Assembly: GCA_018815925.1 (NCBI GenBank)
Contig: JAHIWS010000021.1
Coordinates: forward strand, 25,641-89,640
Length of the DNA stretch: 64,000 bases
Direction of reading: 5' to 3'
Origin: Nanobdellota archaeon
GTDB lineage: Archaea > Nanobdellota > Nanobdellia > Pacearchaeales > GW2011-AR1
Shown: positions 41,890 to 62,009 of the stretch, in pieces
Position numbering within the stretch: the stretch's first letter is position 1
Layout: the number at the start of each line of letters is the position of its first letter
The notes under the pieces: generated by a model
What the model was told of the DNA's origin: nothing
The model's input: only the letters and a program-made list of their open reading frames with translations
Databases searched by the model: none
Position numbers and translations under genes: made by a program

Positions 41890-42269
41890 AAATGGATATA
41901 AAAGAACTTCAAAATAAATTAAAAGAATTTGATAAAGCCAGAGGATGGGAAAATGACTGGAACATAAAAGACCTCTTACTAAACATAACCGAAGAAGGTG
42001 GAGAATTATGGGACTTAATAAAATGGATAGATACTGAAAAACAAAAAGAAGTAATTAAAGAAAAAAAAGAAGAAGCTTCAGATTACATTGGGGATTCTCT
42101 ATTTATATTATTAAAAATGGCTAATCAAATGGATATTGATGCCCAAAAAGCTTTGAATGAAACATTAAATGAATATGAAAAAAGAATGCCCCCCGAAATT
42201 ATGAAAAAAGTAAAACATGCAAATAAACACGCAGGAGGAATTGATAATAAACAAAAATGGCAAATATAA
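41877..42269 (+). CDS. MazG-like nucleotide pyrophosphohydrolase
   Basis: FDKARGWEN...ITEEGGELWDLIKW...DYIGDSLFILLKMANQMDID has the EExxE/D-type MazG helices. Nested between pheS and pheT with overlaps on both sides. Confidence 0.7.
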   Translation: MDEIKMDIKELQNKLKEFDKARGWENDWNIKDLLLNITEEGGELWDLIKWIDTEKQKEVIKEKKEEASDYIGDSLFILLKMANQMDIDAQKALNETLNEYEKRMPPEIMKKVKHANKHAGGIDNKQKWQI

Positions 42270-43894
42270 AATTTCCAAGAAAAATATTCGAAAAAGAAAT
42301 AGGAAAACTAGATTCAAAAATGCAAGAAAAAATTGCTATGTTTGGAACTCCACTTGAATCTTTTAATGATGAAGAAATTGAGATTGAAATTTTTCCAAAT
42401 AGACCAGACTTCCTATCTTACCAAGGATTTAAAAGAAGTTTTCTAGCATTTTTAGGCAAAAAAACAGGTTTAAAAGAATACAAAATAAATAAACCTGAAA
42501 AAGATTATAAAGTCAATATAGAATCATCTGTAAAAAATATAAGACCTTACACAGCCTGTGCAATTATTAAAAATCTAAATCTAGATGATGAAAAAATAAA
42601 AGAACTAATAGAAATACAAGAAAAATTGCACTTAACCATAGGAAGAAAAAGAAAAAAACTTGCGATAGGAATTTACCCTCTTGAAAAAATAAAACTTCCA
42701 ATAACTTACAAAGCTTTAGAACCAGATAAAATAAAATTTATTCCTCTAGAAACAAATAAAGAAATGTCAGGACTAGAAATATTGCAAAAACACCCAGCAG
42801 GAAAAGAATATTCTAATCTTTTAGCAGGAAAAACACAATTCCCTATTTTTATTGATGCTAATAAAAACATATTAAGTATGCCTCCAATAATAAATTCTCA
42901 ATTAACAGGAAAAATAACTTCTAAAACAAAAGAGGTATTTGTTGAATGTTCTGGATTTAATTTTGAAATACTAAATAAATGCCTTAATATAATTATTACT
43001 TGTTTAGCAGATATGGGTGGAAAAATATATAATATGGAAATAAAATCTTCTAAAAAAATTTTAACCCCTAATTTAACCCCTTCAAAAATGAGATTAGATT
43101 TAGAAAATACAAACAAACTTCTTGGACTTAATCTTAATGAAAAAGAAATTAAAAAACTAATTGAAAAAATGGGTCATAATTATAATAAAGGAATTGTGGA
43201 AATTCCTGCATGGAGAACAGATATCCTACATGAAGTTGATTTAATTGAAGACATTGCAATTACTTATGGGTATGAAAATTTTACTATAGAAGTTCCAAAA
43301 ATAGCAGGTATGGGTGAAGAAAAACCAATAGAAATTTTCAAAAGAAAAGTATCTGAAATATTAACTGGTTTAGAATTTTTAGAGGTTTCAAACTACCATC
43401 TAACTAACAAAACAAATCAATTCATAAAAATGGGCATTAACGAAAAACAAGAAAAAGAATTTGTAGAATTAAAGGAATCAAAAACAGACTATAACATTCT
43501 AAGAAAAGATTTAACTCATTATATATTAAAAAATTTCTCAGAAAATGTAGATTCAGAATATCCTCAAAAAATATTTGAAATAGGAAAAATCTTTGAAGAA
43601 AAAGATTCTATAATTGAAAAAGAAAGAATTGCAATAGCAATAACTTCTGGAAATTTTACAGAAATAAAACAAATTCTAGAATATTTATTTAGAATGCTTG
43701 ATAAAAAAATAGAATTAAAAGAAGCCAAAGAACTCCCCCCACATTTTATCGAAGGAAGAACAGCAAGCATTACTCTTAACAATAAAAAAATAGGATTTGT
43801 AGGAGAAATATCTCCTAAAATTTTAAAAAACTGGAAATTAAAAATGCCTGTAGCTCTCTTAGAACTAAACCTTGAAGAAGTTTTTTATGAGTGA
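42257..43894 (+). CDS. pheT: phenylalanyl-tRNA synthetase beta subunit (archaeal type)
   Basis: B3/4 domain region (NRPDFLSYQGF) and B5 region (IPAWRTDILHEVDLIEDIAITYGY). Length and order as in archaeal PheT. Confidence 0.88.
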   Translation: MANIKFPRKIFEKEIGKLDSKMQEKIAMFGTPLESFNDEEIEIEIFPNRPDFLSYQGFKRSFLAFLGKKTGLKEYKINKPEKDYKVNIESSVKNIRPYTACAIIKNLNLDDEKIKELIEIQEKLHLTIGRKRKKLAIGIYPLEKIKLPITYKALEPDKIKFIPLETNKEMSGLEILQKHPAGKEYSNLLAGKTQFPIFIDANKNILSMPPIINSQLTGKITSKTKEVFVECSGFNFEILNKCLNIIITCLADMGGKIYNMEIKSSKKILTPNLTPSKMRLDLENTNKLLGLNLNEKEIKKLIEKMGHNYNKGIVEIPAWRTDILHEVDLIEDIAITYGYENFTIEVPKIAGMGEEKPIEIFKRKVSEILTGLEFLEVSNYHLTNKTNQFIKMGINEKQEKEFVELKESKTDYNILRKDLTHYILKNFSENVDSEYPQKIFEIGKIFEEKDSIIEKERIAIAITSGNFTEIKQILEYLFRMLDKKIELKEAKELPPHFIEGRTASITLNNKKIGFVGEISPKILKNWKLKMPVALLELNLEEVFYE

Positions 43895-54275: not shown

Positions 54276-54581
54276 TTATTTCTTTTTAGCCCTTACAGAA
54301 ATTTTCTTTTTAACAATTTTTTTCCTAGGTCTTCTTCCTAAACCAACTCTTTTAAGAATCCAAATAAGAACTATTGCCAAAATAACTGTTATTAAAGCAA
54401 AAAGTAATACTTTGATAATAAAAGGACTTATTTGTGTATCTTCCGGAGAAAACTGAATATTATTTGCATTTGTCATCCCAAGAACATTACTTGATGAAAA
54501 AAATTCAAACCACACCCCAACTAATAAAGCTACAAAAGCTATAGCAATAACAACAACATAAAATTTCTCATCTTTTTGCAT
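54276..54581 (-). CDS. small membrane protein with Lys/Arg-rich C-terminal tail
   Basis: Two TM helices, then RRPRKKIVKKKISVRAKKK. Confidence 0.45.
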   Translation of the reverse strand: MQKDEKFYVVVIAIAFVALLVGVWFEFFSSSNVLGMTNANNIQFSPEDTQISPFIIKVLLFALITVILAIVLIWILKRVGLGRRPRKKIVKKKISVRAKKK

Positions 54582-54702
54582 ACGAATATATAGGATTACT
54601 TGTTTAAAAAATTTCCCTTATCCTTATTATACACAGATTAAGTATAATATATACTTAATAACAAAAACCTTTATAAACAATAAAATACACATATTAAGTA
54701 TT

Positions 54703-54818
54703 CTAAGGGTAGAAATAGTGAAAGAGAGAACTAAGAAATTCATAATTAATATTAAATTTTTTTCTAGCAAGGACTCTCTTTCAAATACCCTAGAAATCAT
54801 GAGCCCTTGCTTTTTTTC
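54703..54818 (+). promoter_or_regulatory. structured GC-enriched leader or small RNA upstream of the giant surface-protein gene
   Basis: Helix TGAAAGAGAG (54719..54728) / CTCTCTTTCA (54774..54783) sits above AGGGTA/TACCCT. An alternative hairpin AGCAAGGACTC (54767..54777) / GAGCCCTTGCT (54801..54811) is followed by T7. A TATA-like CTTTATAAAC lies at 54668..54677. Confidence 0.35.
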
Positions 54819-54820
54819 AT

Positions 54821-57800
54821 ATGATAAATAAAATAATTCAGTTGGAACAAAGAAAAAAAGAAATTATTGAAAAGATAAGAACAGTTGCTAAAGTCAAAAG
54901 AAGAATAATAAATTATACTAAAAAACTAATTTCAGACTTTAATTCTAAAAAAATTACAAAAGAAGAATATCAAGAAAAATTAAAAAAAGATTTCAAACAG
55001 AAATATCCTCAAGAATGGCTTGATTATTATACTAAACACATTACAATATACGAAAAACACCTTGAAGAATGTGAAAAAGCAATTTCAAGAGAAAAAAGAA
55101 AATCAATTATAAAAAAAATAATTTTACCTCTAATAAGCATTGCCTTAATTTCAATGGGATTATTTTTATACTCTTATTTACAAGAACGTGCTCCTGCTTT
55201 AGCACCCCCAACAATAGAAACTTATACAGAAACCTTAGGTGTTACTATAAATGAAAACATAACCTATACCTGGATTTTAGATAATTTTGGAACACTGCAA
55301 TCAGTTAAATTATCTGGGTTAATAATAGAACAAGGAAATGCAAAAGTATATTTAGAAGACAACTCAGAAAATGAATTTTTAATATTTGATAGTCTTAATA
55401 TAGGAATACTTTACAGCCCAGATGAAAACATAACTCAAAATACAACACAACCAACAAACCAAACAATCCCTCAAACCAACATTTCAAACCAAACTCTTTC
55501 TCCAAATCAAACAACAAACATAACACAACCAACAAACCAAACAACACTCACACCAGAAAAAATAACAATTCCTGAAAATATTACACAAGAAATTCCAATC
55601 AATGAAACAAACATAACAAAAAAAATTATTCCTATAAACATCACACTAAATTTTTCAGATATTTGTGAAGAAACTTGTGACTTATCTGAATTTAATCTAA
55701 ACCAAACTTCCTACAATCTAAAAATAGAAATAACTAACTCGGAATTATACTTAGACACAATAACTTATGAAATAATAACTCAAGAAATAACACTTCCTCC
55801 TGAAAATATAACAATTCCTGAAAATATAACAGAAGAACCTCTCTCTACTCCTTTAAAAGAAACAGGAGAAAAAGCAACATGGTGGAACTCTTTTTATCAA
55901 TACAGAAAACAATTAAGAATAACAAATAACCAAGCTTCTACTTTAGTAGCCGGATATAGTGTTTATTTTGTAATTGACACAACAGGACCAGATTTTTTAG
56001 ATAATGGAGATGACCTAAGAATTGTATGGGATAGTGGAACAGGCTTAATTGAGTTAGATAGAGTAAATGAAACAATATTTGATTCTACAACAACACAAAT
56101 TTGGTTCAAATCACAGCAAAATATTCCTGCAAGTTCTTATGATGAAAACTATTATTTGTATTACGGCAATAATGCTGCTGCAAATCCTCCAAATAATAAA
56201 AAAAATGTTTATCTATGGTTTGATGATTTTAATAGAGTCAATAAACCTGATATTACTACTGAATCTGATTACTCAATAAAAACAAATGGTGGAACATGGT
56301 CAATAGAAAATAATCAACTTAAAAATATAGGTGCTACAGGAGACCCAAATAAATTATTTATAACAGCTTTAGGTTCAAGTGTTCTTCCTGTAGAAATGCT
56401 AACAAAAATAAATGTAAATACCTGGGTTGCAAATAATGATCTTGGAAGAATAGGTCTTTCTCAAGATATGATATCTACTGGTGCAGGTTATTGTTCATTA
56501 TTTCATAATGACCAAAGTAGTTTAGATTTACTAAATGATTTGCTTTCTTGGGGAACTCTTGGAACTTATTCTTGGTTAACAAATACTTGGTATAATATGA
56601 GATTTAAAGTAATTGATCCTTCAACAAGAAATGGGCAAATAAAAGTCTGGCAATCAGGAACTGCAGAACCAGGTTCTTGGACAATTGATGGAAATTTTGG
56701 AACAGGAGCAGCAAAAACAAATGGGTATGTTGGATTTGCAGGCTCAAGGCAAGCAGACATAACTTATTTTGATGATATCCAAATAAGATATATTGTAGCA
56801 CAAGAACCAACACTAACAATATTTGATGTTCAAAACACACCTCCATCAATTCCATTAGATATGGAATGCAATGGGGTTAGTGGTCCAGGAAGTTGTAATA
56901 TAGAAGTTAATACAGGAGTTTTATTGGAAGCAACTGGTTCAACAGATGAGGATTTAGATCTAATAACTTATTATCTTGAAGCTTATTTAGATTCAGGAGG
57001 AACTTGTGCAAATAATGGTGCTTGTGATTTATGTGGAAATTCTGCTCAATGTTCAGATTGTTCTGGGGCTGGATGCTCTTGGATTAGCGAAGAAGATTCA
57101 TCAACTTTAATTCACTTTACTGGTTTTGAAACAGATGCTACTGCTCCATGGGATGGTTGGGTTAATGCAGGAACAGATTGTTTGCGTAGTCTTCAATCAG
57201 CAGTTAATGATAATGGGATACTAGGAGGAACATATTCTCTTGAAGTGCAAGACAATACTTTTACTTCTTACACTGCTCAAACTTTTGATTTATCAAGTCC
57301 TTGCGAAGGAAGTACATGTGATAGTATAAATCTTTCTGTTTATTTAAGACCAAGTAGTTATGATAATACTAGGGAAGGTTTTGATATTTGGTGTGATCAT
57401 GGAACTTTAAATGCTGTTAGAATAGCACACTGGATAGAAGATGGAGATAATTGTGTAATAATAGGGGGAATCGATGTTTGTGAAGATGTTTGGACTAAAG
57501 TTGAATTTGATCTTATAAGTCTAGGATGCACAATAGATTCTGCAATTGAAATAAGATTTACTTCACAAGATTTTACATCTGGGGGAAATAATGACCAGGT
57601 GTATATTGATGGAATTAATATTACTGGACACAAATCAGGAGAATTACCAGGTTGTTCAGGAACTTTAGATTGTTCTTCTCTTAACCAAGTTAATTGTCAA
57701 TCCTGTAATCAATGTGATTGGCAAACTTCAAAACAATGGGTAGAAATAGGAAGTCATACTGAAAGTTCAAGTTTTAACTGGGATACTTCTTTATTACCAG

Positions 57801-59179
57801 AACAAACAAATGTTAATTTAAGAGCAAGAGCAATTGATTTAACAGGAAGCAACACATATTCAAATTATTTTACAAAAAATCCAACTTCACCTTATTTAGA
57901 AATAAATCATGGAGCAAATGACCCCCCAATTATAACAATAACTTCAGTAGATACAAACAATCAAGTGGATTTAATACCAGCAAGCACAACACCAGTTGAA
58001 ATTATCTTTGATGTTACAGATCCTAATGGATATACAGATATTGATGATTCTTCAGTCTCAATAAGTTATGATTATGATTTAGGAGGAGAAGTGACAAGAA
58101 ACAATTTCAACTGCCCAGCCCCAACCAACAACGGACTAAACACAAAAACATTTACCTGCACTGTTGATATGGAATATTATGATGCTGCAGGATACTGGAC
58201 AGCAACAATAGACATTAGTGACTTTTCAGGACCTTCAACAGGTCAAGATACACACCAATTCACAGTTAATTTTTTAAGAGCAATATCTTTAAATCCAGGA
58301 ACAATTACTTTTCCTCCAATATTTCCAGGACAAACAAACATAAACTCAGCACAAAATACAAACATAATAAATGAAGGAAACTTTGAGATTCCAGAAGATA
58401 GTAAACTACAAATAACTTCTCAAGCACTTATAGGACAATCTAATCCTCTGGAAAATATTTCAGGAAATAATTTTAGAGTAGTTGAGGAATCTATTGGAAA
58501 TCCTTGTGTTTTAGGAACCCAATTATCAGAAACAATTCCAATAGATATCTCTGGAATAACCTTATCAAGACTTCCTCCAGGCTCTTATGTAAATATTTCT
58601 TATTGTTTAACTTCTGTTCCAAGTATAAGTTCTCAAGACTATTCAACAACAGGTTATAATGCATGGAGTATAGATATTGTAGTCCTTCTTGTAGCTGTAA
58701 TTCCAGCTCGTAGAAAAAAGAAGAAGAAAATATTAGATGAAAACTTTTTAAACTTTTTAGATGAAAACCTAAAAGATCTATTAATATTTGTAAAACAAAA
58801 TAAAATAAAATCAAAACTTCAAAATATTGAAATCCCCTTAAGTATCTTCAAACAAGGATTAAGTCCTGCAGAAGTTGTCTGCAAATATTTAAAAGAAAAT
58901 AAAAAATTAAAATTCAGTGAAATTGCAATAGCTCTTAACAGAGATCAAAGAACAATCTGGATAAATTACAGAAACTCTTCAAATAAATTAAAAGAAAAAA
59001 TAAAAATAGAAAAATCAGTTTTAATTCCAATTAACATATTCAAGAATAAACTAAGTATATTAGAAGCTATTGTAAAATATCTAAAAGATTTAGGATTAAA
59101 AAACCAGGACATTGCAAAACTTTTAGGAAAAAATCCAAACAACATATGGACAATTTATTCAAGAGCAATAAAAAAATAA
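54821..59179 (+). CDS. giant two-pass membrane surface protein: N-glycosylation-rich stalk, DUF2341/LamG-like lectin region, Cys-rich modules, Ig-like domains, cytoplasmic tandem HTH tail
   Basis: TM1 IILPLISIALISMGLFLYSYL and TM2 WSIDIVVLLVAVIP followed by RRKKKKK. WWNSFYQYRKQLRITNN...GDDLRIVWD is DUF2341-like. The two C-terminal repeats are IP.sIFK..LS..E..VKYLK...LK...IA..L......IW..Y. Confidence 0.8.
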   Translation: MINKIIQLEQRKKEIIEKIRTVAKVKRRIINYTKKLISDFNSKKITKEEYQEKLKKDFKQKYPQEWLDYYTKHITIYEKHLEECEKAISREKRKSIIKKIILPLISIALISMGLFLYSYLQERAPALAPPTIETYTETLGVTINENITYTWILDNFGTLQSVKLSGLIIEQGNAKVYLEDNSENEFLIFDSLNIGILYSPDENITQNTTQPTNQTIPQTNISNQTLSPNQTTNITQPTNQTTLTPEKITIPENITQEIPINETNITKKIIPINITLNFSDICEETCDLSEFNLNQTSYNLKIEITNSELYLDTITYEIITQEITLPPENITIPENITEEPLSTPLKETGEKATWWNSFYQYRKQLRITNNQASTLVAGYSVYFVIDTTGPDFLDNGDDLRIVWDSGTGLIELDRVNETIFDSTTTQIWFKSQQNIPASSYDENYYLYYGNNAAANPPNNKKNVYLWFDDFNRVNKPDITTESDYSIKTNGGTWSIENNQLKNIGATGDPNKLFITALGSSVLPVEMLTKINVNTWVANNDLGRIGLSQDMISTGAGYCSLFHNDQSSLDLLNDLLSWGTLGTYSWLTNTWYNMRFKVIDPSTRNGQIKVWQSGTAEPGSWTIDGNFGTGAAKTNGYVGFAGSRQADITYFDDIQIRYIVAQEPTLTIFDVQNTPPSIPLDMECNGVSGPGSCNIEVNTGVLLEATGSTDEDLDLITYYLEAYLDSGGTCANNGACDLCGNSAQCSDCSGAGCSWISEEDSSTLIHFTGFETDATAPWDGWVNAGTDCLRSLQSAVNDNGILGGTYSLEVQDNTFTSYTAQTFDLSSPCEGSTCDSINLSVYLRPSSYDNTREGFDIWCDHGTLNAVRIAHWIEDGDNCVIIGGIDVCEDVWTKVEFDLISLGCTIDSAIEIRFTSQDFTSGGNNDQVYIDGINITGHKSGELPGCSGTLDCSSLNQVNCQSCNQCDWQTSKQWVEIGSHTESSSFNWDTSLLPEQTNVNLRARAIDLTGSNTYSNYFTKNPTSPYLEINHGANDPPIITITSVDTNNQVDLIPASTTPVEIIFDVTDPNGYTDIDDSSVSISYDYDLGGEVTRNNFNCPAPTNNGLNTKTFTCTVDMEYYDAAGYWTATIDISDFSGPSTGQDTHQFTVNFLRAISLNPGTITFPPIFPGQTNINSAQNTNIINEGNFEIPEDSKLQITSQALIGQSNPLENISGNNFRVVEESIGNPCVLGTQLSETIPIDISGITLSRLPPGSYVNISYCLTSVPSISSQDYSTTGYNAWSIDIVVLLVAVIPARRKKKKKILDENFLNFLDENLKDLLIFVKQNKIKSKLQNIEIPLSIFKQGLSPAEVVCKYLKENKKLKFSEIAIALNRDQRTIWINYRNSSNKLKEKIKIEKSVLIPINIFKNKLSILEAIVKYLKDLGLKNQDIAKLLGKNPNNIWTIYSRAIKK

Positions 59180-59217: not shown

Positions 59218-60147
59218 ATGAGTAAAAACAATATGAAAAGAGGTCATTTAGTATTAGGGATATTATTATTAATGATAATCATACCTTTTACAAATGCAGG
59301 ATTCTGGGATATTTTTAAAAAATCAGAACCTCAATTAGAACCTCAAGATGTTAGTGTTACTGTTGGAAATTCACCTCCTTCAGTCATAATAAACTACATA
59401 GATTCTGACCAAGATAATAGTGTCACACTAACCCAGGCAGGAATTGTTGCTGTAGAAATAAATTTTAATGTAACAGATTTTAATGGTTATTCTGATATTG
59501 ATGATTCTTCTCTAGCAATAAGTTTTGATCTTGATTTAGGAGGAGAACAAAGAACAGGAGCAATAGGTGATTGTACTAGTATAACAAACGATGGAGCTAA
59601 TACAAAAGAATATATTTGTGGGATTAATATGTATCATTATGATCATGATGGAGCATGGACAGCAACAGTAAATATTGATGATCAAACACCTGAAATAGGC
59701 CAAGACAATCACTCATTTATAGTAGAACAATTAAAAGCAATAAGCCTAATACCTTTAGGAATTAGTTTTGGAACTGTAACAGCAGGACAACCCAATATTA
59801 TTGGAGAAGATACAGAAGTCACAAATGAAGGAAATTATGCTATTAGTGCTGATCTGGCAATTACAGCTCAAAACTTAACAGGAGATACAACTCCTTCTGA
59901 ATATATCCCTGCAATTAATTTTAACTCAGCAGACCAATCAGAAGCAGATGTTTGTGGAAGTGGAAGTGCTCTTATTGAAGACAATCCTATTTCAATACCT
60001 AATTTTGTGCTTTCAAAAGGAACAATAGCAACCCCCCTCCCAAACAGAAATGTCACTCACTGCTTAACCCTTGTTCCAACAGGAATAAGTGATCAAATAT
60101 ATTCAGCAACAACAATAAAAACAATACAATGGGAATTTTTAATTTAA
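59218..60147 (+). CDS. secreted protein paralogous to the distal extracellular domains of the giant protein
   Basis: Signal peptide LVLGILLLMIIIPFTNA. NVTDFNGYSDIDDSSLAISFDLDLGGE and AWTATVNIDD mirror DVTDPNGYTDIDDSSVSISYDYDLGGE and YWTATIDISD in the giant protein. Confidence 0.6.
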   Translation: MSKNNMKRGHLVLGILLLMIIIPFTNAGFWDIFKKSEPQLEPQDVSVTVGNSPPSVIINYIDSDQDNSVTLTQAGIVAVEINFNVTDFNGYSDIDDSSLAISFDLDLGGEQRTGAIGDCTSITNDGANTKEYICGINMYHYDHDGAWTATVNIDDQTPEIGQDNHSFIVEQLKAISLIPLGISFGTVTAGQPNIIGEDTEVTNEGNYAISADLAITAQNLTGDTTPSEYIPAINFNSADQSEADVCGSGSALIEDNPISIPNFVLSKGTIATPLPNRNVTHCLTLVPTGISDQIYSATTIKTIQWEFLI

Positions 60148-60677
60148 AAATAACAATATTAATAACAATAATTTTACTAGTCGGAACAGGAAGTGTTATT
60201 GCATTTGGAGTTAGTTCTCCATACTGGGATAAAAATCCTCTAGAAATGTACCCTGGACAAGTTAAAGAAATTGAATTCACACTTGTAAATAAACCAAATG
60301 CAGAAACAGCAAATGCTGTTGTTGAATTAAAACAAGGAGAACAAATAGCTGAAATAAGTAGTGGAAAAAACTATGTTGTGGCTCCTGGAAGCAAAGACAC
60401 AAAAGTAATTTTAAAGATAAGTGTTCCTGAAACTGCTCAAATAGGACATGTTTTTGATGTTAAATTTACAGTTAAAGCAGCTCCTGAGAATCAAGGAGGA
60501 ACAGTACAACTAGGAATAGGTTATAATGTAGATTTCCCTGTTAAAATAGTTGAAGAATATGAAGAAGAAATCATAACTCCTGAAGAACCAAAATCAAAAA
60601 TAAGTTGGTTAACCTGGTTAATTGCGATAGTGATTGTTCTTGTAATAGCTTATTTATTTCTAAGAAGAAAAAGATAA
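60129..60677 (+). CDS. surface protein with N-terminal signal/TM and C-terminal TM anchor
   Basis: Beta-rich ectodomain and the C-terminal anchor WLTWLIAIVIVLVIAYLFLRRKR. Overlaps the previous gene by 19 nt. Confidence 0.55.
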   Translation: MGIFNLKITILITIILLVGTGSVIAFGVSSPYWDKNPLEMYPGQVKEIEFTLVNKPNAETANAVVELKQGEQIAEISSGKNYVVAPGSKDTKVILKISVPETAQIGHVFDVKFTVKAAPENQGGTVQLGIGYNVDFPVKIVEEYEEEIITPEEPKSKISWLTWLIAIVIVLVIAYLFLRRKR

Positions 60678-60707: not shown

Positions 60708-62009
60708 ATGAAAAGAGGAATAATTATTTTATTTTTATTAATAATATTAACTAATTTTAGTCTAGCAAATCAAGCATCTCTAAGCCCAAGTGATGTTTCT
60801 GTTGTGGTGGATAGTCATGCACCAAGTATTGAAATACTTAGTCCATTAAATCAAAGCTATGCTCTAACTATATTAGTTAACTACACTGTTATTGATCCTA
60901 CACTTGATTCAACCTGGTATTCTCTAGATAATCAACCAAATCTAACAATCTTTGGACCTTTTGAATTAACTCTAACAGAAGGAGGCCACCACCTAATAAT
61001 TTATGCAAATGATAGTTTTTCCAGGATAAATTTCTCAGAAGTTTCTTTTAATATAAATTCTTCATTAGGACCTTATTGTGGGAATAATAATTGTGATACT
61101 AATGAAAACTGCTCAAACTGTCCTTCTGACTGTGGAGAATGTTCTTATTGTGGAGACGGCAATTGTGATTCAGATGAAACATGTTCAACATGTGAAGATG
61201 ATTGCGGAGAGTGTTCCCCTGATGATGAAGAAAAACCACCACAAGATAATGAAATAATTATATTAACAAGAGATTTTACTCTTTCTCCATCTACATTAAA
61301 AATTACTTCAACTCCAGGCCAAACTCAAACACAAAAAATAACAGTAGAAAACATAGGAGAAACAAGTCTAAACATTAATTTTGAAATATCCCCTACCATA
61401 ATACTTTTTTCAAAACTTAATCAAGAAAATTTATTCTTGGGCCCAGGAGAAAAAAAAGATATAGGAATAATCTTTGATATTCCTGAAAAAACAACTCCAA
61501 ATGTTTATACAGGAAATATTTTAGCAAAATCAGGAAATCTTTACAAAGCCCTATATCTAAGTATAGAAATAGAAAGTTCAGAACCTCTTTTCGATGTTTT
61601 AGTAACAATTCCATCTGAATATTTAACTGTTTATCCAGGAGATATAATTCCTGCAGAAATAGAAATCATTGATGTTGGAAACGTTGGAATAGTAAAAACT
61701 TCAATTGAAAAAATAATTAAAGATTTTGAAGATAAAATTATCCTTGAAAAAAAACAAAACCTCTCAATCAATGGGAAAATAAATTTTACTGAAATTTTAA
61801 ACATACCTAAAAATATCCTTCCAGGAAAATATGTTTTTTATGTAACAGTAAATTATGAAAATAAAACAGCAATCAGTAGTCAAGAATTTGAAGTAAAAAC
61901 AAATTATCCTTTAAGAATTTTAATTATATCTATTATAATGGGAATAATAATCATCTTATTAATTATTATTTATCTAATTAAAAAGAGAAAAAAACCTAAG
62001 AAAAAATGA
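60708..62009 (+). CDS. surface protein with Cys-rich CGxGxCDxxExCxxCxxDCGEC repeats and C-terminal TM anchor
   Basis: Signal peptide plus two repeats, CGNNNCDTNENCSNCPSDCGEC and CGDGNCDSDETCSTCEDDCGEC. Ig/CARDB-like beta regions and a C-terminal TM followed by KKRKKPKKK. Confidence 0.6.
   Translation: MKRGIIILFLLIILTNFSLANQASLSPSDVSVVVDSHAPSIEILSPLNQSYALTILVNYTVIDPTLDSTWYSLDNQPNLTIFGPFELTLTEGGHHLIIYANDSFSRINFSEVSFNINSSLGPYCGNNNCDTNENCSNCPSDCGECSYCGDGNCDSDETCSTCEDDCGECSPDDEEKPPQDNEIIILTRDFTLSPSTLKITSTPGQTQTQKITVENIGETSLNINFEISPTIILFSKLNQENLFLGPGEKKDIGIIFDIPEKTTPNVYTGNILAKSGNLYKALYLSIEIESSEPLFDVLVTIPSEYLTVYPGDIIPAEIEIIDVGNVGIVKTSIEKIIKDFEDKIILEKKQNLSINGKINFTEILNIPKNILPGKYVFYVTVNYENKTAISSQEFEVKTNYPLRILIISIIMGIIIILLIIIYLIKKRKKPKKK

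What the first reader, a model, noticed from the sequence alone, without database searches (positions are those of the whole stretch)
58661..59179. Cytoplasmic tandem HTH tail on a giant extracellular protein: possible membrane-tethered one-component regulator
After ~1160 extracellular residues and a second TM helix (WSIDIVVLLVAVIP, then RRKKKKK), the last ~150 aa contain two repeats. They are IPLSIFKQGLSPAEVVCKYLKENKKLKFSEIAIALNRDQRTIWINYRNSSNKL and IPINIFKNKLSILEAIVKYLKDLGLKNQDIAKLLGKNPNNIWTIYSRAIKK. Their spacing of hydrophobic and IA..L...... residues matches sigma-70 region 4, LuxR and HTH_10 (Bat-type) helix-turn-helix domains. This would couple a lectin-like surface sensor or adhesin directly to DNA binding (ToxR/CadC logic, but C-terminal and duplicated). 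I do not know of this architecture being described in archaea. The tail might alternatively be released by proteolysis.
Basis: inference. Interest (0 to 1): 0.65.

Follow-up and report, generated by a model that had tools for sequence, protein, structure and literature searches.

The report
Membrane-tethered tandem-HTH regulator tail
The last 150 residues of a giant surface protein from a tiny DPANN archaeon are a cytoplasmic pair of sigma-factor-like DNA-binding domains; this large, barely studied family is almost always linked to such membrane proteins and to one conserved promoter motif, which suggests how these symbionts couple their cell surface to gene expression.

Summary
ORF 54821..59179 (1452 aa) ends in a short hydrophobic segment, RRKKKKK, a linker helix and two homologous repeats (43% identical). 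Each repeat is a three-helix HTH that superposes on sigma-70 region 4.

The tail belongs to a DPANN-restricted family of at least 2,273 clusters at 50% identity. Most members are soluble ~175-aa proteins, probably the Woesearchaeota "sigma-70" genes reported in 2021 with no known anti-sigma factor.

Three things are new:
- **Partner domain.** The family is tied to membrane proteins carrying a conserved ~95-aa N-terminal cytoplasmic coiled-coil hairpin ("Ncyt"). The link is either a fusion, as here, or an overlapping two-gene operon. Of 23 decidable Ncyt proteins, 21 are linked to the HTH.
- **Promoter motif.** These operons carry an oriented ~17-bp motif (ACAYACATA-N-TAAGTA), usually one copy on each side of the TATA box. 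It occurs in 35/53 versus 3/327 upstream regions, and in 30/37 versus 4/114 in a hold-out set. The window has two copies, at 54629 and 54685.
- **No region 2.** These proteins are not sigma factors.

Best reading: a membrane-tethered or membrane-sequestered autoregulator with sigma/anti-sigma-like logic. DNA binding, the Ncyt-HTH contact and the topology are inferred. The second hydrophobic segment is unusually short.

The parts
54629..54645 (+). Distal copy of the conserved operon motif (ATACACAGATTAAGTAT), about 25 nt upstream of the TATA-like box.
   Evidence: Direct repeat D3. It matches the family motif ACAYACATA-N-TAAGTA. The strict motif gives 4 overlapping matches in the 64-kb window against 0.6 expected; 3 of the 4 form these two sites.
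54651..54658 (-). Inverted half-site ATACTTAA, the reverse complement of TTAAGTAT, next to the distal copy.
   Evidence: Read from the sequence. TAAGTAT/ATACTTA is the most enriched 7-mer upstream of HTH-linked operons (34/54 vs 38/327, p=3e-15).
54670..54677 (+). TATA-like box TTTATAAA. The proximal motif core (ACACA) starts 17 nt after the start of the box.
   Evidence: Read from the sequence. Across the family, the distance from TATA start to motif start clusters at 14-19 nt. Its role as a TATA box is inferred from archaeal promoter architecture.
54685..54701 (+). Proximal copy of the conserved motif (ATACACATATTAAGTAT), lying between the TATA box and the inferred transcription start. Candidate operator for the tandem HTH.
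   Evidence: The same TATA-to-motif arrangement is seen in the hold-out loci.
54702..54820 (+). 119-nt leader with a long hairpin (about 54701-54795).
   Evidence: RNA fold -28.2 kcal/mol, z=-2.9. No Rfam family matches. A subset of related operons have longer structured leaders, and 22 of 70 are leaderless.
54821..55117 (+). Ncyt: conserved basic N-terminal cytoplasmic domain (residues 1-99, motif EWLDYY). Predicted antiparallel coiled-coil hairpin continuous with TM1. Candidate partner of the tail.
   Evidence: AF2 pLDDT 95.8, with helices 2-41, 47-57 and 63-123. It is present in 26/29 complete fused giants and in the ORF downstream of 15 stand-alone HTH genes. Reverse test: 21/23.
55118..55180 (+). 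TM1 (IILPLISIALISMGLFLYSYL), a signal anchor with the N-terminus inside.
   Evidence: Highest hydrophobicity in the protein. Best 13-mer dG is -1.9. It is flanked by a basic N-terminal side.
55181..58663 (+). Ectodomain (residues 121-1281). It is acidic, Cys-rich and rich in sequons. It has a DUF2341/LamG-like segment (nt 56069-56236) and a conserved membrane-proximal module (nt 57914-58651).
   Evidence: pI 4.05, 22 sequons, 27 Cys. DUF2341 scores 22.6 bits against a cut-off of 23.4. Homologues are annotated DUF2341 or LamG. The proximal module has a paralogue in ORF 59218.
58664..58708 (+). Short hydrophobic segment WSIDIVVLLVAVIPA, the putative second membrane crossing or stop-transfer signal.
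   Evidence: In relatives the stretch from W to the basic cluster is 8-17 aa. The split version L001 lacks it.
58709..58729 (+). Polybasic cluster RRKKKKK, a positive-inside signal.
   Evidence: Conserved in all fused relatives.
58730..58831 (+). Linker (residues 1304-1337), predicted to be a long helix. It is homologous to the N-terminal region of the stand-alone proteins.
   Evidence: AF2 helix 38-64 of the construct. Alignment with stand-alone homologues.
58832..58990 (+). HTH repeat 1 (IPLSIF...). Recognition helix RDQRTIWINY.
   Evidence: AF2: strand plus three helices, pLDDT above 94. Nearly invariant P, F, E, KYLKE, R, W and Y.
59024..59176 (+). HTH repeat 2 (IPINIF...). Recognition helix KNPNNIWTIY. 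This is the part that matches Sigma70_r4_2.
   Evidence: Pfam PF08281, positions 25-53 of 54, 25.6 bits. TIGR02952/TIGR02937 region 4 only. Foldseek match to SigR region 4 at 0.8 A.

Best explanation
Region 58661..59179 encodes the cytoplasmic C-terminal tail of a two-pass (N-in, C-in) giant surface protein of a DPANN (Nanoarchaeota, Woese/Pace-type) archaeon. The tail is a linker helix followed by an internally duplicated HTH that resembles sigma-70 region 4.

**Shown**
- The HTH fold and the duplication.
- Membership of a large DPANN-specific family.
- Near-obligate linkage of that family to membrane proteins carrying a conserved N-terminal cytoplasmic coiled-coil hairpin (Ncyt). The linkage is either a fusion or a translationally coupled upstream gene.
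- A conserved, oriented ~17-bp bipartite motif (ACAYACATA-N-TAAGTA) specific to the promoters of these operons, typically one copy upstream of the TATA box and one between the TATA box and the start.

**Inferred mechanism**
- The tandem HTH binds this motif, one repeat per half-site about one helical turn apart, and so autoregulates the surface-protein operon.
- Its access to DNA is controlled at the membrane. In two-gene systems Ncyt would sequester it. In fused proteins such as this one it is covalently tethered, with Ncyt of the same or a neighbouring molecule as partner.
- The state of the giant ectodomain (host contact, loss, cleavage) would then feed back on transcription.

This is ECF sigma/anti-sigma-like or ToxR-like logic built from an ordinary archaeal transcription factor, not from a sigma factor. 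My evidence does not decide whether the tail acts while tethered or after proteolytic release, or whether it activates or represses.
For: **HTH identity:**

**Family size and taxonomy**
- 190 hits in the word-indexed search, median length 175 aa, soluble.
- 2,273 clusters at E<=1e-3 among 1.84 billion representatives.
- 255 relatives in the GTDB species genomes. The 80 loci retrieved are labelled Woese-, Pace- or Nanoarchaeota, apart from a few 'uncultured Methanosarcinales/archaeon' TPA bins.
- None in viral contigs.

**Fusion recurs:** 45 giant ORFs of 590-3455 aa with a C-terminal tail, and giants up to 5919 aa.

**Ncyt linkage**
- 38 of 38 Ncyt ORFs in HTH-selected loci either carry the tail (26) or sit directly downstream of a stand-alone HTH gene (12).
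- In Ncyt-selected metagenome loci, 21 of 23 decidable cases are linked.
- Among 47 ectodomain homologues: 9 have Ncyt plus tail, 1 has the tail only, 0 have Ncyt only, and 37 have neither.
- Stop and start codons overlap by 4-56 nt in the two-gene forms.
- Some partners are small, anti-sigma-sized proteins of 116-318 aa.

**Split version:** in L001 the ectodomain stops after the last strand and the HTH protein starts, in the same frame, at the polybasic stretch.

**Motif**
- Unbiased k-mer enrichment.
- Composite motif 35/53 vs 3/327, p=1e-32.
- Hold-out set 30/37 vs 4/114, p=9e-21.
- Orientation-specific, with stereotyped spacing from the TATA box.
- Two copies upstream of this gene.
- Suggestive co-variation between recognition-helix class and 3' half-site: RT/RN helices with TAAGTA in 33/41, RS/KKHPS with ACAGTA in 4/5, RC or RN/RT with TATGTA.

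**Topology:** charge asymmetry.
Against: - No experiment or structure shows DNA binding, Ncyt-HTH contact or topology.
- The second hydrophobic segment is very short: 15 aa here and 8-17 aa in relatives. Best 13-mer dG is +0.6 here, with a family median of +1.3. That compares with -1.9 for TM1 and -5 and -7.8 for the neighbouring C-terminal anchors.
- Its W-x-I-x-I part is the terminal ectodomain strand in tail-less relatives.
- Ncyt shows no similarity to known anti-sigma domains; it matches only generic coiled-coil hairpins.
- Only 15 of 52 stand-alone HTH genes have a recognisable Ncyt gene downstream. Others precede giants with a plain signal anchor.
- Another factor could bind the motif, or it could be a specialised core-promoter or initiator element.
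- The co-variation sample is small and phylogenetically non-independent.
- This protein's repeat 2 recognition helix (KNPNNIW) departs from the family consensus (RDQRNIW).
Confidence: 0.55

Rival explanations
1. The tandem HTH is a protein-protein adaptor, not a DNA binder. It would bind the Ncyt hairpin, or TFB/RNAP, much as sigma region 4 binds anti-sigma factors and the beta-flap. Its role would be stoichiometric: a cytoplasmic chaperone or assembly factor for inserting or clustering the giant surface proteins.
For: - Overlapping stop and start codons suggest roughly equimolar synthesis with the membrane partner.
- There is near-obligate co-occurrence with Ncyt.
- Covalent fusion to the partner is tolerated.
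Against: - The recognition helices are the most conserved part: nearly invariant R, W and Y, in a basic tail of pI 9.9.
- A specific conserved DNA motif marks exactly these operons.
- The half-site varies with helix class.
Confidence: 0.15
2. The tail binds DNA for a structural purpose, not to regulate genes. It might anchor the nucleoid to the membrane at the host-contact site, or hold incoming DNA on the cytoplasmic side.
For: - The tail is basic and membrane-proximal.
- DPANN cells are tiny and depend on their hosts for nucleotides (general knowledge).
- Other giants next to stand-alone HTH genes have long K/R-rich cytoplasmic tails.
Against: - Generic DNA anchoring does not explain a sequence-specific, promoter-positioned, oriented motif restricted to these operons.
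- It also does not explain the soluble stand-alone majority of the family.
Confidence: 0.1
3. The short hydrophobic segment does not span the membrane, so the tail is extracellular, for example as an eDNA-binding module on the cell surface.
For: - The hydrophobic stretch is 8-17 aa with marginal predicted insertion energy.
- W-x-I-x-I is an ectodomain strand in tail-less relatives.
Against: - A polybasic cluster always follows it.
- Both termini are basic and the ectodomain is acidic.
- Stand-alone homologues have no signal peptide or TM.
- In the split form the HTH protein is a separate leaderless-type cytoplasmic protein and the hydrophobic segment is absent.
- The tail co-occurs with a cytoplasmic N-terminal domain.
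Confidence: 0.05
4. These are genuine bacterial-type sigma factors acquired by DPANN archaea, as earlier automatic classification suggested. In that case the tail would be a tethered sigma factor.
For: - Pfam, NCBIfam and JGI annotations call them sigma-70 region 4 or sigma-24.
- They were reported as sigma-70 genes in Woesearchaeota (PMC8204110).
Against: - None of 109 members has a Sigma70_r2 match. Only region 4-like HTHs are present, and in duplicate.
- The region N-terminal to the repeats is a 35-60-aa linker.
- Archaeal RNA polymerase uses TBP and TFB, and the promoters here have TATA boxes.
Confidence: 0.03

Closest known systems
ECF sigma factor / membrane anti-sigma factor pairs (e.g. 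sigmaE-RseA; SigI-RsgI of Clostridium thermocellum, which has extracellular carbohydrate-binding sensors)
   Same: - The DNA-binding unit is built from sigma region 4-type HTHs.
- The regulator gene lies directly upstream of, and overlaps, the gene of a membrane protein.
- That membrane protein has a ~95-aa helical N-terminal cytoplasmic domain, one TM and an extracytoplasmic domain of variable size.
- The operon promoter carries a family-specific motif, as expected for autoregulation.
   Different: - There is no region 2, so this is not a sigma factor.
- It has two region 4-like repeats instead of sigma2 plus sigma4.
- The host uses TBP/TFB promoters.
- Ncyt is a coiled-coil hairpin with no detectable similarity to anti-sigma domains.
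- In about half of the retrieved cases the two partners are one polypeptide separated by a giant ectodomain.
Transmembrane transcription regulators (ToxR, TcpP, CadC; archaeal ArnR/ArnR1)
   Same: - One polypeptide combines an extracytoplasmic domain, a membrane anchor and a cytoplasmic DNA-binding domain.
- The class is known in archaea (PMC10269533; PMC6396743).
   Different: - ToxR and CadC have an N-terminal OmpR-type winged HTH and a single TM.
- Here the DNA-binding unit is C-terminal, tandem and sigma4-like.
- It is reached through a second, unusually short hydrophobic segment.
- The ectodomain is 1,100 to more than 5,000 aa.
- A second conserved cytoplasmic domain sits at the N-terminus.
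'Sigma-70' protein family reported in DPANN, prevalent in Woesearchaeota (fam00359 of Castelle et al. 2021, PMC8204110)
   Same: - Probably the same stand-alone proteins. JGI names several hits 'sigma24 family' and NCBI names this very protein 'sigma-70 region 4 domain-containing'.
- The taxonomic distribution is the same.
   Different: - That paper found no anti-sigma factors and left their control unexplained.
- The fusion to giant surface proteins, the Ncyt partner and the promoter motif are not mentioned there.
- I could not check that fam00359 is identical to this family.
Bipartite two-HTH DNA-binding domains read as one unit (paired domain, Tc1/mariner and CENP-B N-terminal domains)
   Same: - Two small HTH units in tandem on one chain.
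- This fits a ~17-bp bipartite site whose conserved blocks lie about one helical turn apart.
- Weak Foldseek hits to SETMAR and CENP-B DNA-binding domains.
   Different: - There is no sequence relationship.
- The repeats here are sigma4/LuxR-like, and each is preceded by a short strand (IPxSIF).
- There is no transposase or other catalytic domain.

Membership tests
Pfam Sigma70_r4_2 (PF08281) / sigma region 4-type HTH | Score at or above the Pfam gathering cut-off of 25.7 bits | tested here: inconclusive
   The window tail scores 25.6 bits (25.3 in a longer construct), just below the cut-off. It matches positions 25-53 of 54, in repeat 2 only. 88 of 109 family members match at E<=1e-3, the best at 9e-15.
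Pfam Sigma70_r4_2 (PF08281) / sigma region 4-type HTH | Three-helix HTH fold superposable on sigma region 4 | tested here: met
   In the AF2 model the repeats have pLDDT above 94. Foldseek gives SigR region 4 (5fgm) at rmsd 0.8 A over 47 residues with probability 1.00, and SigF region 4 (8jzt) at 0.8 A over 47. The family profile against PDB sequences gives sigma-H 3mzy at E=3e-4.
Sigma-70 family sigma factors (including ECF) | Region 2 (core binding and -10 recognition) N-terminal to region 4 | tested here: not met
   None of 109 members has a Sigma70_r2 hit. NCBIfam sigma models align only over their region 4 part. Only a 35-60-aa linker helix precedes the repeats.
Sigma-70 family sigma factors (including ECF) | Acts with a bacterial-type RNA polymerase core on -35/-10 promoters | not testable with these tools
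   The host is an archaeon. The operon promoters show TATA-like boxes 14-19 nt upstream of the motif.
Transmembrane transcription regulators (definition of Demey et al. 2023: DNA-binding domain plus at least one TM) | Predicted DNA-binding domain in the same polypeptide as a TM segment | tested here: met
   HTH pair. TM1 is clear. The second crossing is marginal.
Transmembrane transcription regulators | Binds promoter DNA and regulates transcription while membrane-anchored | not testable with these tools
   There is only circumstantial evidence: the conserved motif at own promoters.
Anti-sigma factor (ASD/ZAS) as identity of the Ncyt domain | Sequence or fold similarity to an anti-sigma domain (four-helix ASD, HxxxCxxC in the ZAS type) | tested here: not met
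   The profile against the PDB gives only coiled-coil noise. The AF2 model is a helical hairpin, and Foldseek gives only generic hairpins at E>=0.39. Pfam Sigma_reg_N scores E=0.2.
Sigma/anti-sigma-like two-gene module (functional analogy) | Regulator gene co-oriented with, adjacent to and overlapping the gene of a membrane protein that has an N-terminal cytoplasmic domain, with reciprocal co-occurrence | tested here: met
   12 overlapping pairs in HTH-selected loci, and no unlinked Ncyt ORF. 21 of 23 are linked in Ncyt-selected loci. In this window the two parts are fused in one ORF.
DPANN tandem-HTH family (defined here by alignment A1) | Two repeats IPxSIF-x(3-5)-LSxLE-x-VKYLKE...EIA-x-LL-x-RD-x-R-[TN]-IW-x-x-Y after a linker helix | tested here: met
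   The window tail is the query, and hits reach E=2e-55. Nearly invariant positions are shared. Repeat 2 of this protein deviates in the recognition helix (KNPNNIW).

The most novel reading that the evidence does not exclude
DPANN archaea would have an archaeal counterpart of extracytoplasmic-function sigma/anti-sigma signalling. In this reading a giant host-contact surface protein uses its N-terminal cytoplasmic hairpin to gate a sigma4-like tandem-HTH factor. That factor is either co-encoded or fused to the protein's own C-terminus. It binds a bipartite operator flanking the TATA box of the same operon. Events at the cell surface (attachment, shedding, cleavage) would then directly reset expression of the surface-protein repertoire. 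This would also explain the previously puzzling 'sigma factors without anti-sigma factors' of Woesearchaeota.
Probability: 0.35. Interest if true: 0.85.

Novelty: new variant of a known kind. Interest (0 to 1): 0.72.

Why it matters
- DPANN archaea are ultrasmall, mostly uncultured episymbionts. How they sense and respond to hosts is essentially unknown, and they have very few recognisable signal-transduction genes.
- This family has at least 2,273 clusters at 50% identity. It links their most conspicuous surface proteins to a DNA-binding module and to a defined promoter motif.
- That gives a concrete, testable regulatory circuit. The operator sequence, the protein domains and the candidate partner domain are all specified.
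- It offers an answer to a question left open in the literature: what controls the 'sigma-70-like' proteins of Woesearchaeota (PMC8204110).
- It would extend membrane-tethered transcription factors to a new architecture: C-terminal, tandem, placed behind a giant ectodomain, with both termini cytoplasmic.
- The motif can also be used to predict the regulon in any DPANN genome.

Tried and rejected
- **Other copies in the window.** A family HMM against all six frames found only this tail.
- **Ncyt homologues in the word-indexed database.** A single-sequence search returned nothing and used the last search of that kind. I replaced it with HMM scans of the loci already held and with a metagenome scan.
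- **Metagenome scan with the broad Ncyt alignment A2.** The narrower alignment A4 worked.
- **AF2 with A2.** I redid it with permitted subsequences as A3.
- **Identity of Ncyt.** The PDB profile search and Foldseek gave only generic coiled-coil hairpins. I therefore rejected the anti-sigma-domain reading as homology and kept it only as analogy.
- **Ectodomain against PDB sequences.** No hit. An earlier attempt was out of frame.
- **Rfam on the upstream region.** Nothing near threshold.
- **Viral contigs.** No relatives, so a mobile or viral origin is not supported.
- **Assembly or fusion artefact.** Rejected because the architecture recurs in dozens of independent contigs.
- **Motif as base composition or a generic promoter signal.** I first compared against random windows, then against other intergenic upstream regions of the same loci, then in a hold-out set. 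The enrichment survived all three.
- **First regex attempts at the helix/half-site co-variation table.** They returned nothing. The corrected version gives only suggestive numbers.
- **Pfam scan of single repeats.** The coordinates I used (proteins 3 and 4) were offset from the true repeat boundaries.
Full report
**1. The observation**

ORF 54821..59179 (+) is a continuous 1452-codon reading frame ending in TAA. Its parts are as follows:
- A basic N-terminal region, residues 1-99, pI 9.9.
- A strong hydrophobic helix, residues 100-120.
- An acidic region, residues 121-1281: pI 4.05, 22 N-x-S/T sequons, 27 Cys.
- The segment WSIDIVVLLVAVIPA, residues 1282-1296, followed by RRKKKKK.
- A 34-residue linker.
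- Two repeats: residues 1338-1390 (nt 58832-58990) and residues 1402-1452 (nt 59024-59176).

The repeats are 43% identical over 46 residues (E=2e-9 for the pair). The finding's coordinates and quoted peptides are correct. The identical protein is in NCBI from a 96-kb contig, named 'sigma-70 region 4 domain-containing protein [Nanoarchaeota archaeon]' (P0121). The window holds only this one copy of the module.

**2. The repeats are HTH domains of the sigma region 4 type**

- Pfam Sigma70_r4_2 scores 25.6 bits on the tail against a cut-off of 25.7.
- NCBIfam ECF-sigma models align only with their region 4 part.
- In an alignment of 109 family members (A1), 88 match Sigma70_r4_2 and none matches region 2.
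- The family profile's best solved relative is sigma-H region 4, 3mzy (E=3e-4).
- AlphaFold2 on A1 gives pLDDT 88 and pTM 0.75, with pLDDT above 94 across both repeats. Each repeat is a short strand (IPxSIF) followed by three helices.
- Foldseek finds no global match. Single repeats superpose on SigR region 4 (5fgm) and SigF region 4 (8jzt) at 0.8 A over 47 residues.

Because region 2 is absent, these proteins are not sigma factors.

**3. The tail is one form of a large DPANN family**

- The tail alone retrieves at least 190 proteins.
- An exhaustive profile search finds 2,273 clusters at 50% identity with E<=1e-3, and 1,468 with E<=1e-30.
- A scan of one genome per species finds 255 relatives. 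The 80 loci retrieved carry Woesearchaeota, Pacearchaeota or Nanoarchaeota labels, apart from a few 'uncultured Methanosarcinales/archaeon' TPA bins.
- Viral contigs have none.
- Most members are soluble proteins with a median length of 175 aa. They consist of the linker plus the two repeats and have no hydrophobic segment. Some have four repeats.
- JGI names several of them 'sigma24 family'.

Castelle et al. 2021 reported sigma-70-classified genes 'particularly prevalent in Woesearchaeota'. They found no anti-sigma factors and called the controlling mechanism unclear (PMC8204110). This is very probably the same family, though I could not verify the identity of their fam00359.

**4. The fusion to a giant surface protein is recurrent, not an accident**

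- Of the 80 genome loci, 45 carry the module as the C-terminal tail of ORFs of 590-3455 aa.
- The representative search adds giants of up to 5919 aa.
- All share a conserved membrane-proximal ectodomain ending (...Y-C-L...S-Q-x-Y-S-T...G-x-W-x-I-x-I). This is followed by 3-10 hydrophobic residues, often P-A, a polybasic cluster, the linker and the repeats.

**5. A second conserved cytoplasmic domain and two-gene versions**

The N-terminal ~95 residues, here called Ncyt, carry the motif EW(L/I)xYYD. They are conserved among the fused giants.

AF2 predicts with pLDDT 95.8 an antiparallel coiled-coil hairpin whose second helix runs straight into TM1. It resembles no known domain.

Association in the HTH-selected loci:
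- All 38 Ncyt ORFs are linked to the module. 26 carry the tail and 12 lie directly downstream of a stand-alone HTH gene.
- 26 of 29 complete fused giants have Ncyt.

Two-gene forms:
- The stop of the HTH gene overlaps the start of the Ncyt gene by 4-56 nt.
- Some partners are small proteins of 116-318 aa, consisting of Ncyt, one TM and a modest ectodomain.

Reverse test, on 47 metagenome loci selected only by Ncyt:
- 18 have the tail.
- 3 have the upstream HTH gene.
- 24 are cut by contig ends and cannot be decided.
- Only 2 decidable cases lack both.

Among 47 homologues found through the ectodomain, 9 have both Ncyt and the tail, 1 has the tail only, none has Ncyt only, and 37 have neither.

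Overall, 24 of 44 stand-alone HTH genes directly precede an ORF of at least 400 aa on the same strand. Six more precede a small Ncyt protein.

One Woesearchaeota locus (L001) shows a split version. A 1313-aa surface protein ends right after the last ectodomain strand. In the same frame, the next codon starts a 175-aa HTH protein at its polybasic stretch. The hydrophobic segment is simply missing.

**6. Topology**

Evidence for an N-in/C-in topology:
- The charge asymmetry.
- The soluble, signal-less homologues.
- The split version.
- The coupling to a cytoplasmic N-terminal domain.

The caveat is that the second crossing is weak:
- From W to the basic cluster is 15 residues here, including an Asp, and 8-17 residues in relatives.
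- A Hessa-type estimate gives +0.6 kcal/mol here and a family median of +1.3. TM1 scores -1.9 and the classical C-terminal anchors of the two neighbouring genes score -5.0 and -7.8.
- Tail-less relatives end exactly with W-x-I-x-I, so that part belongs to the ectodomain fold. The neighbouring ORF 59218 also ends with a hydrophobic W-containing strand (..QWEFLI*), consistent with this.

I therefore treat the cytoplasmic location as likely (about 0.85) but unproven. The segment may work as a short stop-transfer signal reinforced by the polybasic cluster.

**7. A conserved cis-element marks these operons**

The window's upstream region has the direct repeat ATACACA(G/T)ATTAAGTAT at 54629 and 54685, plus an inverted ATACTTAA at 54651.

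- **Unbiased k-mer test.** I compared upstream regions of HTH-linked operons with other intergenic upstream regions of the same loci. TAAGTAT/ATACTTA ranks first among 7-mers (34/54 vs 38/327, p=3e-15), with ATACATA next. Among 6-mers TACATA ranks first.
- **Composite pattern.** ACA[ACT]A-N1-5-[TA]A[AG]GTA in the gene's orientation occurs in 35/53 operon regions, 26 of them with two or more copies. It occurs in 3/327 other regions (p=1e-32). In reverse orientation there is no enrichment.
- **Consensus.** Anchored alignment of 59 sites gives TACAYACATA-N-TAAGTA.
- **Hold-out set.** In the Ncyt-selected metagenome loci it occurs in 30/37 vs 4/114 (p=9e-21).
- **Layout.** The arrangement is stereotyped: a distal copy, about 20-25 nt, TTTATAAG, about 9 nt, then a proximal copy. 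The proximal copy often abuts the ATG. The distance from TATA start to motif start clusters at 14-19 nt.
- **Position relative to the promoter.** By standard archaeal promoter geometry (my knowledge), the proximal copy covers roughly -13 to +3 and the distal copy lies upstream of BRE/TATA.
- **In the window.** TTTATAAA lies at 54670-54677 and the proximal copy at 54685-54701. The strict motif gives 4 overlapping matches in 64 kb against 0.6 expected. Three of them make up these two sites.

The only DNA-binding domain encoded by these operons is the tandem HTH. Its recognition helices are the most conserved part of the protein. Two conserved DNA blocks about one helical turn apart fit two HTHs on one chain.

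Helix classes and 3' half-sites co-vary suggestively:
- RDxRT/RDQRN helices go with TAAGTA in 33 of 41 cases.
- RDDRS/KKHPS helices go with ACAGTA in 4 of 5.
- RxERC or N/RDxRT helices go with TATGTA.

The sample is small and phylogenetically structured.

**8. Mechanism**

Shown:
- The fold.
- The family.
- The fusion.
- The reciprocal Ncyt linkage.
- The promoter motif.

Inferred:
- The tandem HTH binds the motif and autoregulates the operon.
- Ncyt is its cytoplasmic partner.
- Tethering or sequestration at the membrane makes its activity depend on the giant ectodomain.

The gene logic matches ECF sigma/anti-sigma pairs: the regulator gene overlaps the gene for a membrane protein with an N-terminal cytoplasmic helical domain, and the promoter is autoregulated and family-specific. 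It also overlaps with ToxR/CadC-type transmembrane regulators, which are known in archaea (PMC10269533; ArnR, PMC6396743).

It is not a member of the sigma family (no region 2). Ncyt is not a recognisable anti-sigma domain.

I put 0.55 on the full model. Separately, I put about 0.9 on 'cytoplasmic sigma4-like tandem HTH tail belonging to this family', and about 0.6 on 'binds the motif'.

Rivals are listed separately:
- A protein-protein adaptor or chaperone.
- Structural DNA anchoring.
- An extracellular tail.
- A genuine sigma factor.

Open points:
- Whether the factor activates or represses.
- Whether the tail acts tethered or after cleavage.
- What the ectodomain (DUF2341/LamG-like) senses.

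**9. Novelty and score**

Membrane-tethered transcription regulators and sigma/anti-sigma sequestration are known kinds. In my literature searches I found none of the following described:
- The C-terminal tandem sigma4-like tail behind a giant ectodomain.
- The N-terminal hairpin partner.
- The interchangeable fused and two-gene forms.
- The conserved operator.

I rate the finding a new variant of a known kind, with interest 0.72. It turns an explicit open question about DPANN 'sigma factors' into directly testable predictions.

Noticed in passing
window 54702-54820; also L091, L104, L107, L110, L009, L011, L013, L020, L101 upstream regions: The 119-nt leader between the proximal motif and the ATG folds into a long hairpin (z=-2.9). 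A subset of related operons have 150-215-nt leaders with very stable long-range stems, for example AGGTGTGTAAAGTGGC...GCCACTTTACACACCT, with MFE of -43 to -50 kcal/mol. About a third of the operons are leaderless instead. No Rfam family matches. This may be an undescribed cis-regulatory RNA or DNA element.
   Followed up: partly
window 59218-60147 (+): A 309-aa secreted protein is a paralogue of the giant's membrane-proximal ectodomain module (residues 1032-1277; 44% identity, E=3e-51). It ends ..IQWEFLI* with no anchor or tail. It starts 38 nt after the giant's stop codon, so it is probably in the same operon.
   Followed up: partly
window 60129-60677 and 60708-62009 (+): Two further surface proteins follow on the same strand. 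Both have classical C-terminal anchors: 20-23 hydrophobic residues followed by RRKR or KKRKKPKKK. The second has Ig-like and Cys-rich segments. They make a useful contrast to the giant's very short second hydrophobic segment.
   Followed up: partly
L001 4059-8528 (= L072), Woesearchaeota YT1_182: The gene order is giant (1313 aa), stop, in-frame ATG of an HTH gene (175 aa), a second HTH gene (199 aa), then a giant (2216 aa) overlapping it. The in-frame stop between the first giant and the HTH gene raises the possibility of occasional read-through producing a fused form.
   Followed up: no
L044, L046, L049, L057, L059 (stand-alone HTH plus downstream giant): This sub-class has a divergent repeat 2 helix (KKHPSAIATV). 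It precedes giants that have a plain N-terminal signal anchor, no Ncyt, and long K/R-rich C-terminal cytoplasmic tails. Their promoters carry ACAGTA instead of TAAGTA.
   Followed up: partly
L045, L070, L079 (including the complete genome of archaeon GW2011_AR20, CP010426.1): Here a stand-alone HTH gene overlaps the start of a giant that itself has both Ncyt and a C-terminal HTH tail. In this subgroup the hydrophobic segment before the tail is only about 8 residues (WTISIFFF, then KRRK), which is hard to reconcile with a helical membrane span.
   Followed up: partly
P0003, P0004, P0008, P0133, P0168, P0170; the 320-370-aa class: Versions with four HTH repeats (the tandem unit duplicated) exist both as soluble proteins and as tails of giants of up to 5919 aa.
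   Followed up: no
P0122, P0123, P0152 (closest ectodomain homologues): These tail-less relatives carry a different conserved N-terminal cytoplasmic segment (MVYKRYIYKNGKKIGPYYYENKKV...) before their TM. This suggests that cytoplasmic modules are swapped on a common ectodomain scaffold.
   Followed up: no
window 54276-54581 (-): A divergently transcribed 101-aa protein with two hydrophobic segments and a K/R-rich C-terminus shares the intergenic region that holds the motifs. It has a weak PspC-TM-like Pfam hit (E=0.003).
   Followed up: no
window 42867: This is the only other strict motif match in the window (ACATATTAAGTA). It lies inside ORF 42257..43894 and is probably chance.
   Followed up: no
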